Of a stretch of 64,000 bases of DNA, positions 15,001 to 18,000 are shown piece after piece. Every line of letters begins with the position of its first letter. Positions within the stretch are counted from its first letter, which is position 1. The DNA is taken from the NCBI GenBank assembly GCA_050575255.1, contig JBNZDD010013687.1:5933012-5997011 (forward strand). Reading direction: 5' to 3'. This DNA is from Harriotta raleighana. Its lineage: Eukaryota. Made by a program: the position numbers.

Positions 15001-18000
15001 ATTTTGTACAATGTGGTGGCTATATTTGGGGGTGAACTTGGCAGTCAAATATCTCATGCACAGCCATGAAGAAAATTTTACATGGAGGATTGTTGTCTAA
15101 GACAATAGGAGAAACTCCAAGCTCTTCCAAATAGTGCCATGGGATCTTCAACATCCACCTGTCTAGGCAGACAGGTATATCTCATATGAAGGACTGCATT
15201 TCCCTCAGTGCAGCATTAAGAGTGTTAGCCTTGACTGTTAGCTCAAATTCCCAATGTGAGGCTTAACCACACAACCTTCCAACTCAGAGGCAAGAGTGCT
15301 ACTCACTGAGGCAGGCTGACACCTAAACTACATTGATGCCTTGGCATAAGAACGTGGGTTTATTAACACCTTTCCTTGCACTTTACCTCCAGTTTATCAA
15401 AACTAAGCACACACTTACCTGCTTGGTATGATTGTTCAGAAAGAAGTCCTAAACGCAGGCCGAAGGCAAGGAGGATAACGGTAGCAACAGTTAATAGCAA
15501 TAAAAACTGCAGTTCAGCAATCGTTGCAAGAAGGAAAATAAAATGGCAAACAGAGCACAATTATACAGGCAAGGCATCATCAAAAAGAAATGCAATTGGA
15601 CATGCAGGAGTAACTAGCTAGAATGTCATCTGCAAACATTAACCTATTCACCAGCTCAGTGACTCAGAAGCTAAGGTGTGGCAGAGATTGCTTAACTGTT
15701 GGGAGTGCTTTGGTCGAATGTGGCATTTCTCTCTTGAGTTGCAGAAAGTTTACTTTAGAATCCATTTATTTTTGTATTTTGGTGAGCAATTTAAAGATCT
15801 TATTTTTTCATGGTTACATAAAACCAAAATGCTTCCAATTGCAACCTGATGTATAATTTTAAAGGCGTTAGTATATTGGGTGTAAAGGATGCAGTAGTCA
15901 CGAAAATCCTGCTTGTTGAAGCTTTGGTTTTTGGTCACTTGGAGATATGTCTACTCCTTTTAACCTGACTGAGGATCCAGACAAACTGGTCAATCACTAC
16001 ACTTGCTTTGGAATAGTGATTACTCAGTACTGAAACTCAAATCAATGCTGCCCTGAGTCTTGCTAGAATCTGTAAGCAATTTGTGTGGGTGAAGGGGTTA
16101 AATAATTTAGATATCTGGACTATTGAGCTGTGCCCACTTTACAATAAATGATGCAACAGGCAAAGACATGCAAATCATCAGTTTTAACATAAAAAAAAGC
16201 CATTTCACAATTTCTGCAGCATTGATGCATTGTGTGATATATGTTTTTAAAACAGGCAATTAAAGCAAAATCGGATGGTTTGGTTTCACAATCCAAAGCG
16301 AAAGAAAATAGCGCAAACACAGGTCTAAAACAAATGAATTAAGTGAGAGCACGGACTGCTGACTTTACCCTTAGCTTTGTGTTCTCCAAACGTTGCTCAG
16401 CATTAGCATTATCATTACATTGTGCTGTTGTGATATATAGCAAACTGAAAATGTACTGGAAAATAGCCATATATACATATACACACGATAAACACAACCG
16501 TCACTGATGAACTATTGTGCTTAATGGAAACTCACTCTGCACCTCTCACTCAGATATTCAATATGTGCGGAGAAGCATCATAAAGGGGAATTCCACACAA
16601 ATCACACCAGGGGAAACATAAAATGTATTGGACGCAAAAGTTGCATATAAAATATCAACCCAGCTCCTTCTTCTAGATCCTGATCGAGTTACCCATTCTC
16701 TCACATTATTCTCCAATTTCTGTTACCTGTTGCCTTTGGTAAGCAGAGAATGTCTTCTCAATCTCTTCCAAGTCAAGCACTTTGAAGACCTTGGTGTCGT
16801 CAATTTCTAACCAGACCGTCTCCTCTAGTTTGTTCTGAAAAGTGAGAAGAGGTTCACTATCATGCTGTGCAAAGCACACATTAAACAAATGCATAGTTTT
16901 CTCACTGCACTTTGCTGTACATCCTATGAGTTATACAGTAAAAGGATTAGACAAAGTTAGAATGAATAGGCCGTTCACCCTTTGCTGGGGAGTCTGTATA
17001 AAATACAAGTATATGACCAGTATAAAATAATCTGTGTAAATCTACGTAAATGTCATAAAATATCCCTCCAACATGAAAAGTGCTACAGCTAATGTAAGGA
17101 TTGTTACATTATATTAACATTTACATTAGCTGTTGAAACTGAGCAGATGAACTGAATACAGCTTCTTATCGTGCAACTGATTCCAAATCTGCTGGAGCAG
17201 CCAGAATCCCTCCACTGCGTGCTTGATGATCTAATATTGGGAAAGTGGACAATAAGTTACTGGAATAGAAGCTGTTGACTGTAATTCAGTCCCTTTTCTT
17301 ACTTCAACTTTGCTAAAGGTACTGAATTACAAAGAAATTTTGTATTACAAAGGGACTGTATTAGTCAACAGTGATCAAATACAATAGCAACAACTTGGAT
17401 TTGTATAGCACCCTCCATGCCGGATGGTGTCCCAGAGCAAACAGCTGACACCAGCTCTGAAAAGAGTATAGACGCAACTGTTATCTAGTCACTGTAATCC
17501 CCCAAAATTATAATTGGGTTATTCAATCCACAACTGTTTGCGGGACATTGCTGTGTGCAATCGGCTGCTGCATTTTGCTCGCAAAATACAGTTGATGCAC
17601 TTTACAGTATATTCTGAGAAGCTCTTTGAGGCGTCTCCACATTGTAATAAGTCGCTATGTCGAATGCAAGGATTCTTATTCTTATTGATTGCTCCCAGTG
17701 ATGTGGGTAATCATGTTATCACTAACCTCAGGTAACTTGGCCCAGTTGAAGGATTTGACAGGATTTGCTGGTTGTGGGATATTTTTCCTCTTCTGTCCCG
17801 AGCCCATGGGGCCTCCTGGAGGTGGGGGCATCCCCCCGAGGGGGGGTGGGCCGGGAGGGGGTGGGGGGCCGCCGGGCGGGGGAGGAGGTGGGGGGATGCA
17901 GCACATCGGAGGAGGAGGGGTTGGAGGGATCCCTACTAAGAGAGATGGGGACGGTGGAATGGGACCACCAGGGGCTCCTGGGAGGAGAGGAGGGCCTCCT

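What the first reader, a model, noticed from the sequence alone, without database searches (positions are those of the whole stretch)
15419..15448. 30-nt neural-type DAAM1 microexon in the FH2 linker
Seen: a 30-nt phase-0 exon, DFFLNNHTKQ, with a strong CAG|gtaagt donor lies between the exons ending YQRQQ and starting KETEA; the ORF track cannot show it. Known (recalled): mammalian DAAM1 has a neuron-specific 10-aa insert, DFFVNSNSKQ, at this position, in the linker that tunes FH2 dimer actin assembly. Inference: the length and the DFF..N...KQ pattern are kept in this apparent cartilaginous fish, so the switch predates the split with bony vertebrates. The exon itself is known; this window provides an outgroup copy with its regulatory context.
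Basis: partly seen in the sequence, partly recalled or inferred. Interest (0 to 1): 0.65.

Follow-up and report, generated by a model that had tools for sequence, protein, structure and literature searches.

The report
Known DAAM1 neural microexon, non-human copy
This is a real-looking 30-base mini-exon in the flexible linker of the actin-assembly gene DAAM1, at the spot where the human protein has a 10-residue insert, but its conservation from sharks to humans is already published, so it is an ordinary confirmation.

Summary
On the minus strand, 15448..15419 reads DFFLNNHTKQ, with a pyrimidine-rich ...TTTAG acceptor and a CAG|GTAAGT donor. The stated flanking junctions, 16727 and 13097, are both phase 0.

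The gene is a DAAM-type formin. Drf_GBD, Drf_FH3, a poly-proline exon and FH2 pieces lie colinear on the minus strand. Every exon searched is closest to human DAAM1 among solved structures.

In both solved human DAAM1 chains, exactly 10 residues separate the segments matching the two flanking exons.

Of 121 in-frame open AG..GT candidates in the 3629-nt intron, only this one has a 9/9 consensus donor plus 15/20 pyrimidines. 1 of 5000 shuffled introns gave an equal.

The 200 nt upstream are the richest in UGC of the whole window strand (14 copies). The zone free of AG dinucleotides before the acceptor is 60 nt. Both fit the published architecture of SRRM3/4-dependent microexons.

Polinski et al. 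2025 already report this microexon "from sharks to humans", 9-10 aa, neural and SRRM3/4-dependent.

Not testable here: tissue-specific inclusion, the taxon, and the letters of the human insert.

Verdict: already known, low interest.

The parts
15419..15448 (-). 30-nt, phase-0 microexon encoding DFFLNNHTKQ (10 aa)
   Evidence: Read directly. It is the only strong candidate among 121 in the intron. 1 of 5000 shuffled introns gave an equal.
15413..15421 (-). 5' splice site CAG|GTAAGT, a 9/9 match to MAG|GTRAGT
   Evidence: This is the single occurrence of the 9-mer in the window on either strand. For comparison, the flanking exons' donors match 7/9 (CAG|GTAACA) and 8/9 (AAG|GTAAAT), read.
15449..15508 (-). 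3' splice-site region: AG at 15450..15449, 15/20 pyrimidines before it, UGC at -9, -20, -38 and -51, a branch-point-like UUAAC with its A at -43, and no other AG for 60 nt
   Evidence: There are 4 UGC in 60 nt against a mean of 1.29 at the 201 intronic AGs; 2.5% of those AGs reach 4. The AG-free zone is 60 nt against a median of 13; 5% reach 60. The flanking exons have 24 and 29.
15449..15648 (-). UGC-rich upstream intronic stretch (14 UGC in 200 nt), a candidate SRRM3/4-type intronic enhancer
   Evidence: 14 is the maximum over all 63,801 sliding 200-nt windows of this strand, reached only at this place (mean 3.65); 0 of 5000 mononucleotide shuffles and 104 of 5000 dinucleotide shuffles reach 14.
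16727..16834 (-). Upstream constitutive exon (C1), 108 nt, ending ...FSAYQRQQ; FH2 lasso side of the linker
   Evidence: 30/36 identical to human DAAM1 chains 2z6e_A 28-63 and 2j1d_G 26-61, E = 5e-15; the next formin, FMNL3, has E = 0.31. Pfam FH2 profile positions 22-58.
12991..13097 (-). Downstream constitutive exon (C2), 107 nt, starting KETEA...; rest of the linker and start of the FH2 core
   Evidence: 28/35 identical to 2z6e_A 74-108 and 2j1d_G 72-106, E = 1e-10; mDia1 has E about 0.05. Pfam FH2 profile positions 49-91.
272..52019 (-). Host gene: DAAM1-like formin, from the first coding exon (MAPRKRG...) to an FH2 exon at 272-502; the 3' end (DAD) lies outside the window
   Evidence: six-frame reading. 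Drf_GBD at 36841-37080 and 21968-22417; Drf_FH3 at 21968-22417, 20732-20980, 19848-20018 and 19149-19550; poly-proline FH1 exon within 17685-18023. FH2 pieces colinear, profile positions 22 to 346; best solved match is always human DAAM1.

Best explanation
This is the ortholog, in a non-human vertebrate, of the known neural DAAM1 microexon (Daam1-MIC, VastDB HsaEX0018410). It is a 30-nt cassette exon between the two exons that encode the lasso side and the core side of the FH2 linker. When it is included, the disordered linker that tethers the two halves of the FH2 dimer gains 10 residues. According to published work on the human and mouse protein, that lowers actin binding, polymerisation rate and bundling, and affects RHOA/ROCK signalling in neurons. 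Inclusion most likely depends on SRRM3/4 acting on the UGC-rich stretch between a distant branch point and the AG, helped by a perfect U1-complementary donor. In non-neural cells the exon would be skipped, because a 30-nt exon with a distant branch point is poorly defined. Shown here: the exon, its frame, its position relative to human DAAM1, its splice signals and the UGC enrichment. Inferred: that it is spliced in at all, that inclusion is neural, that SRRM3/4 act on it, and that the effect on actin is the same as in mammals.
For: Sequence and junctions. Host gene is a DAAM-type formin. Human DAAM1 is the best solved match for all 5 exons searched. Identities: 30/36 and 28/35, 42/43 over the conserved part, 32/36 and 27/28. 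Other formins score far weaker or not at all. Exactly 10 residues separate the two flank matches in both human chains, 64-73 in 2z6e_A and 62-71 in 2j1d_G. The candidate is unique in its intron (1 of 121) and shuffles seldom match it (1 of 5000). Cis-architecture: UGC at -9, -20, -38 and -51, a 60-nt AG-free zone and a 9/9 donor; 14 UGC in 200 nt, the strand-wide maximum; 0 of 5000 mononucleotide and 104 of 5000 dinucleotide shuffles reach that. The bioRxiv preprint 10.1101/2024.09.17.613571 describes this architecture for SRRM3/4-dependent microexons: a strong 5'ss, branch point and pyrimidine tract far from the AG, and a UGC between branch point and AG in 57/73 and 51/71 such exons (passages). 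Polinski et al. 2025, PMC12056172 (section 6 read whole; passages) report the following: the microexon sits in the FH2 linker, is 10 aa in human and 9-10 aa 'from sharks to humans', is neural-restricted, depends on SRRM3/4 in human, mouse and zebrafish, and its skipping raises actin polymerisation and bundling.
Against: There is no RNA evidence of any kind for this window, so neither inclusion nor tissue specificity is shown. Peptide-level likeness to other vertebrates' microexon could not be tested: the 21-aa frame holding the exon found nothing in the PDB at E <= 10, and no held text prints the human letters. DAAM1 versus DAAM2 could not be separated by a direct comparison, because no DAAM2 sequence was available in any open tool. 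The dinucleotide-shuffle control for UGC is only moderately strong (104 of 5000). UGC within 60 nt is reached by 2.5% of the intronic AGs. A perfect donor could also fit constitutive inclusion. RBFOX, NOVA and PTB-type motif counts near the exon are unremarkable.
Confidence: 0.88

Rival explanations
1. The exon is real and orthologous, but in this lineage it is included constitutively or in a different tissue pattern, so the neural 'switch' is not ancestral here.
For: The donor is a perfect 9/9 consensus, the only one in 64 kb, and the pyrimidine content before the AG is decent at 15/20. Strong signals could support inclusion without a neural factor. No RNA data were available. The text of Polinski et al. 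that I read does not name the species in which neural restriction was measured.
Against: A strong 5'ss is itself a described feature of SRRM3/4-dependent microexons. The 60-nt AG-free zone and the UGC cluster are the regulated architecture, not that of the neighbouring constitutive exons, whose AG-free zones are 24 and 29 nt. Minigenes of microexons from 47 jawed vertebrates, including elephant shark, kept their SRRM4 response (passage; it is not stated that DAAM1's shark copy was among them).
Confidence: 0.07
2. The host gene is DAAM2 or a lineage-specific DAAM paralog, not DAAM1, so the exon would be a paralogous or independently arisen insert.
Against: Identity to human DAAM1 is 80-83% even in the two exons flanking the poorly conserved linker, and 89-98% in the core FH2 exons. 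Polinski et al. found neural-regulated exons in only four formin genes, DAAM1, FMNL1, FMNL2 and FMNL3, and not in DAAM2. From my own recollection, not from any call, the N-terminal exon resembles DAAM1 much more than DAAM2.
Confidence: 0.03
3. It is a chance pseudo-exon: an AG..GT-bounded open frame in a long intron that is never spliced in.
For: The intron holds 121 in-frame open AG..GT candidates. 250 of 5000 shuffled introns give some 3-51-nt candidate with donor >=8/9 and >=14/20 pyrimidines.
Against: Only 1 of 5000 shuffles gives a 30-nt candidate of equal quality. The length equals the 10-residue gap seen in the human chains at this same junction. The densest UGC stretch of the strand abuts it. 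The exon and its flanks are not part of any repeat in the window; the nearest repeat copy is at 15074-15175.
Confidence: 0.02

Closest known systems
Daam1-MIC, the neural microexon of vertebrate DAAM1 (VastDB HsaEX0018410; Polinski et al., Nat Commun 2025, PMC12056172)
   Same: Same host gene family and same junction: between the exon ending the lasso side and the exon starting the core side of the FH2 linker. Same length as the human exon (10 aa) and inside the published 9-10 aa range. Frame-preserving. The upstream UGC-rich region and strong donor fit its reported SRRM3/4 dependence.
   Different: Nothing different was shown. Residue-by-residue likeness, tissue pattern and effect on actin are untested for this copy. 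The published shark copy comes from calMil1; whether this window is that species or another could not be determined.
SRRM3/4-dependent neuronal microexon class (3-30 nt; bioRxiv 10.1101/2024.09.17.613571)
   Same: The length sits at the class's upper bound (30 nt). It shares the strong 5'ss, the branch point and pyrimidine tract set back from the AG, and UGC motifs between branch point and AG.
   Different: The upstream half of the bipartite UCU_CUC...UGC enhancer is only loosely present here: UCCUCCUU at -27, with the nearest UCUCU or CUCUC at -239. Response to SRRM4 is untested.
Other formin microexons (FMNL1-A, FMNL2-A; Polinski et al. 2025)
   Same: These are also frame-preserving neural microexons in formin genes.
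   Different: They lie next to the GTPase-binding domain (FMNL1) or next to the FH2 domain (FMNL2), not inside the FH2 linker. The window's exons match FMNL3 only weakly: E = 0.31 against 5e-15 for DAAM1.

Membership tests
DAAM subfamily of Diaphanous-related formins (DAAM1) | Domain order GBD - FH3 - coiled coil - FH1 (poly-proline) - FH2 on one strand | tested here: met
   Drf_GBD (E = 2e-27 for the best exon) and Drf_FH3 in 4 exon-bearing frames; poly-proline frame at 17685-18023. FH2 pieces in 8 of 10 frames submitted, colinear from profile position 22 to 346. Only one exon (3704-3901, 75.9 bits) passes Pfam's whole-protein cut-off alone, as expected for single exons.
DAAM subfamily of Diaphanous-related formins (DAAM1) | Closest to DAAM1 among characterised formins | tested here: met
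   for 5 of 5 exons searched, the two human DAAM1 chains are the top hits (E from 1e-10 to 2e-24). FMNL3, mDia1 and INF2 are orders of magnitude weaker or absent.
DAAM subfamily of Diaphanous-related formins (DAAM1) | Orthology to DAAM1 rather than DAAM2 | tested here: inconclusive
   No DAAM2 sequence was reachable. Indirect support: 80-98% identity per exon to human DAAM1, and the presence of a microexon reported for DAAM1 but not DAAM2.
DAAM subfamily of Diaphanous-related formins (DAAM1) | C-terminal DAD autoregulatory segment | not testable with these tools
   The gene runs off the window's start. The last FH2 piece seen is at 272-502.
Daam1-MIC neural microexon | Lies at the junction where DAAM1 isoforms differ, inside the FH2 linker | tested here: met
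   the flank matches end at chain residue 63 (2z6e_A) or 61 (2j1d_G) and resume at 74 or 72, which leaves 10 residues; the paper places the microexon in the linker.
Daam1-MIC neural microexon | 27-30 nt (9-10 aa), frame-preserving, with usable splice sites | tested here: met
Daam1-MIC neural microexon | Peptide similar to the microexon of other vertebrates | not testable with these tools
One search gave 0 hits; chain letters are not retrievable. Fig. 1f of the paper is not held and supplements are closed.
Daam1-MIC neural microexon | Inclusion restricted to neural tissue | not testable with these tools
   No transcript data are available.
SRRM3/4-dependent microexons | UGC between branch point and AG, long branch point-AG distance, strong 5'ss | tested here: met
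   measured against the description.
SRRM3/4-dependent microexons | Inclusion rises with SRRM3/4 and falls without them | not testable with these tools
   This needs a minigene or knock-down experiment.

The most novel reading that the evidence does not exclude
The exon is ancestral, but in this lineage the splicing control differs from that in mammals. With the only perfect U1-complementary donor in 64 kb, it might be included broadly or constitutively. That would mean the neural restriction was layered onto an older, always-included linker segment. Alternatively, the exceptionally dense UGC block (14 in 200 nt) might mark an ancestral, stronger form of the SRRM3/4 enhancer that was later pared down.
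Probability: 0.06. Interest if true: 0.4.

Novelty: already known. Interest (0 to 1): 0.13.

Why it matters
It matters little beyond good annotation. Automatic gene models often miss 30-nt exons, so marking 15419-15448 as an alternative exon gives the correct long isoform of DAAM1 in this genome. The copy adds one more sequence for comparing the UGC-rich enhancer of a functionally characterised microexon whose deletion in mice impairs dendritic spines, long-term potentiation and memory. Two points are already in print: the microexon's conservation from sharks to humans, and the shark-to-mammal conservation of the SRRM4 response of the microexon minigenes tested in the preprint.

Tried and rejected
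(1) Seeing the human insert's letters. The 21-aa open frame that starts at the microexon found no PDB chain at E <= 10. get_proteins does not take PDB chain ids. The texts of PMC12056172 and PMC12993246 do not print the peptide. This was left unchecked.

(2) Local RNA structure. 15359-15548 folds at -45.6 kcal/mol, z = -1.06, and 28 of 200 shuffles fold as well. Nothing there.

(3) Other splicing-factor motifs. GCAUG lies at -157 and +360 (UGCAUG at -158 and +359, 2 of the 3 copies in the intron). YCAY counts are 1 and 2 per 200 nt against 3.0 expected. UCUCU/CUCUC occurs only at -239. None is distinctive.

(4) Opposite strand and other frames in 13000-17000. 15 stop-to-stop frames of at least 60 aa, none suggesting another gene.

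(5) The second-best pseudo-exon, 14544..14497 (48 nt, donor 8/9), has only 8/20 pyrimidines and is rejected.

(6) Rfam over the whole window found only 5 tRNA-model hits, none near the exon.

(7) Irimia et al. 2014 (PMC4390143) is not held.

(8) Not used because they hold no vertebrate DNA: genome contigs, phages, plasmids and E. coli genomes. No vertebrate DAAM1 or DAAM2 orthologs could therefore be aligned.

Full report
**1. The observation**

On the minus strand, 15448..15419 reads GACTTCTTTCTGAACAATCATACCAAGCAG, which translates to DFFLNNHTKQ. It is preceded by ...CCTCCTTGCCTTCGGCCTGCGTTTAG and followed by GTAAGT.
- The upstream exon is 16834..16727 (108 nt). It ends ...FSAYQRQQ at CAG|GTAACA.
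- The downstream exon starts at 13097 with KETEA... after ...TGTCGCAG, and ends at 12991 before GTAAAT.
- An in-frame TAG sits directly 5' of the exon, and the frame closes 11 codons into the intron. The open frame is therefore only 21 codons, which is why an ORF listing would not show it (accepted that 21-aa translation).

**2. Is it more than chance?**

The intron between the two flanking exons is 3629 nt and holds 121 stop-free, in-frame AG..GT candidates of 3-51 nt.
- Only this candidate combines a donor matching MAG|GTRAGT at 9/9 with at least 14/20 pyrimidines before the AG; it has 15/20.
- That 9-mer occurs once in the whole 64-kb window on both strands, and that one copy is this donor.
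- In dinucleotide-preserving shuffles of the intron:
  - 1 of 5000 gave an equally good 30-nt candidate.
  - 33 of 5000 gave a 27- or 30-nt candidate at a looser level (donor >=8/9, >=14/20 pyrimidines).
  - 250 of 5000 gave any 3-51-nt candidate at that looser level.
- The exon and its flanks are single-copy within the window. The nearest repeat copy is at 15074-15175.

**3. The host gene**

Six-frame reading of the minus strand together with Pfam, run exon by exon, gives a colinear formin.
- The first coding exon begins MAPRKRG... near 52019.
- Drf_GBD lies at 36841-37080 and 21968-22417. Drf_FH3 pieces lie at 21968-22417, 20732-20980, 19848-20018 and 19149-19550.
- A coiled-coil-like exon lies at 18190-18594 and a poly-proline exon within 17685-18023.
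- FH2 pieces run from profile position 22 to 346, in 8 of the 10 frames submitted.
- The gene leaves the window before its 3' end.

I searched five FH2 exons one by one against the sequences of solved structures. In all five the two human DAAM1 chains (2z6e_A, 2j1d_G) are the best hits.

| Exon (window, minus strand) | Identity to human DAAM1 |
|---|---|
| 16834..16727 (upstream flank) | 30/36 |
| 13097..12993 (downstream flank) | 28/35 |
| 9118-9360 frame | 27/28 |
| 5885-6094 frame | 32/36 |
| 3704-3901 frame | 42/43 over the conserved part |

FMNL3, mDia1 and INF2 score far lower or not at all. These identities are below 100%, so I do not take the window for human sequence. The three N runs (48394-48403, 53636, 63632-63712) were left alone.

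**4. Position relative to the human protein**

- The upstream exon aligns to chain residues 28-63 of 2z6e_A and 26-61 of 2j1d_G.
- The downstream exon aligns to 74-108 and 72-106.
- Both solved human chains therefore carry exactly 10 residues between the two matches, the number this 30-nt exon encodes.

I could not see the letters of those 10 residues.
- The 21-aa frame holding the exon found nothing at E <= 10.
- Chain sequences are not retrievable.
- The papers' texts do not print the peptide.
- The figure with the alignment and the supplements are not available to me.

Position and length are verified, residue likeness is not.

**5. Splicing signals**

| Feature of the microexon | Value | Comparison |
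|---|---|---|
| UGC in the 60 nt before the exon (at -9, -20, -38, -51) | 4 | Mean 1.29 at the 201 intronic AGs; 2.5% reach 4 |
| Zone free of AG dinucleotides before the acceptor | 60 nt | Median 13; 5% reach 60; flanking exons 24 and 29 |
| Branch-point-like UUAAC | A at -43 | - |
| UGC in the 200 nt upstream | 14 | Strand mean 3.65; the maximum of all 63,801 sliding windows, reached only here |
| Shuffles of those 200 nt reaching 14 UGC | - | 0 of 5000 (mononucleotide); 104 of 5000 (dinucleotide) |

This matches the architecture described for SRRM3/4-dependent microexons in bioRxiv 10.1101/2024.09.17.613571 (passages). That architecture has a strong 5'ss, a branch point and pyrimidine tract set back from the AG, and a UGC between branch point and AG in 57/73 and 51/71 such exons.

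The upstream UCU_CUC half of the bipartite enhancer is only loosely present. RBFOX, NOVA and PTB-type motifs are unremarkable. The local RNA fold is not unusual, z = -1.06.

**6. Mechanism**

The published human and mouse work is Polinski et al. 2025, PMC12056172. I read section 6 whole and passages elsewhere. It reports the following.
- The microexon lengthens the disordered FH2 linker and makes it the longest among human formins.
- The form without the microexon polymerises and bundles actin more and binds fibres more.
- Deleting the exon in mice raises RHOA/ROCK signalling and impairs dendritic spines, LTP and memory.
- Inclusion is neural and depends on SRRM3/4 in human, mouse and zebrafish.

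By orthology I infer the same for this copy. None of it is shown for this window.

**7. Comparison with what is known, and novelty**

- A full-text search for 'DAAM1' plus 'microexon' found 16 papers, of which 15 were listed.
[quoted passage not shown] They used the elephant-shark genome calMil1.
- The preprint reports that minigenes of microexons from 47 jawed vertebrates kept their SRRM4 response 'from shark to mammals'. The elephant shark is among the species whose orthologs it retrieved.
- The commentary PMC12993246 calls it a 9-amino-acid microexon (passages).
- PMC12626424 and PMC12868881 only cite the work.
- A second search, 'microexons' + 'shark' + 'neural', found 12 papers, 11 listed, and added nothing on DAAM1.

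The exon, its place, its function and its depth of conservation are therefore already in print. This window is at most one more copy.

**8. What stayed open**

- Tissue-specific inclusion could not be addressed, because there are no RNA data.
- The taxon could not be tested. No vertebrate genome collection was open, so 'cartilaginous fish' is untested.
I left out the joined step, so there is no fold of the FH2 domain with and without the insert and no whole-protein search.

**9. Verdict**

The finding is already known, so interest is low.

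Noticed in passing
window 15449-15648 (- strand): The 200 nt upstream of the microexon hold 14 UGC. That is the maximum of all 63,801 sliding 200-nt windows on this strand, and only windows at this place reach it.
   Followed up: yes
window 15413-15421 (- strand): This is the only exact MAG|GTRAGT 9-mer in the 64-kb window on either strand. None of the gene's other exons has a perfect consensus donor.
   Followed up: yes
window 60951-61022 (-), 38198-38269 (-), 32841-32912 (-), 9930-10001 (+), 54723-54780 (+): Five matches to the Rfam tRNA model lie in introns or upstream of the gene. 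ARAGORN calls two of them, Ala-tgc and Val-tac. They look like heads of tRNA-derived SINEs rather than working tRNA genes.
   Followed up: partly
window 15074-15175: An interspersed repeat copy with 4 other matches elsewhere in the window lies about 245 nt 3' of the microexon donor. It is the only repeated part of the 3629-nt intron.
   Followed up: partly
window 15605-15610 and 15055-15060 (- strand; -158 and +359 from the exon): Two of the three UGCAUG (RBFOX-type) motifs of the intron lie within 500 nt of the microexon. The count is too small to weigh.
   Followed up: partly
window 17685-18023 (- strand): A poly-proline frame (FH1) runs straight into the first FH2 residues. Pfam gave no family for it at E <= 0.1.
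   Followed up: no
window 48394-48403, 53636, 63632-63712: Three runs of N (10, 1 and 81 bases) lie in the first intron or upstream region of the gene. They were left as they are.
   Followed up: no
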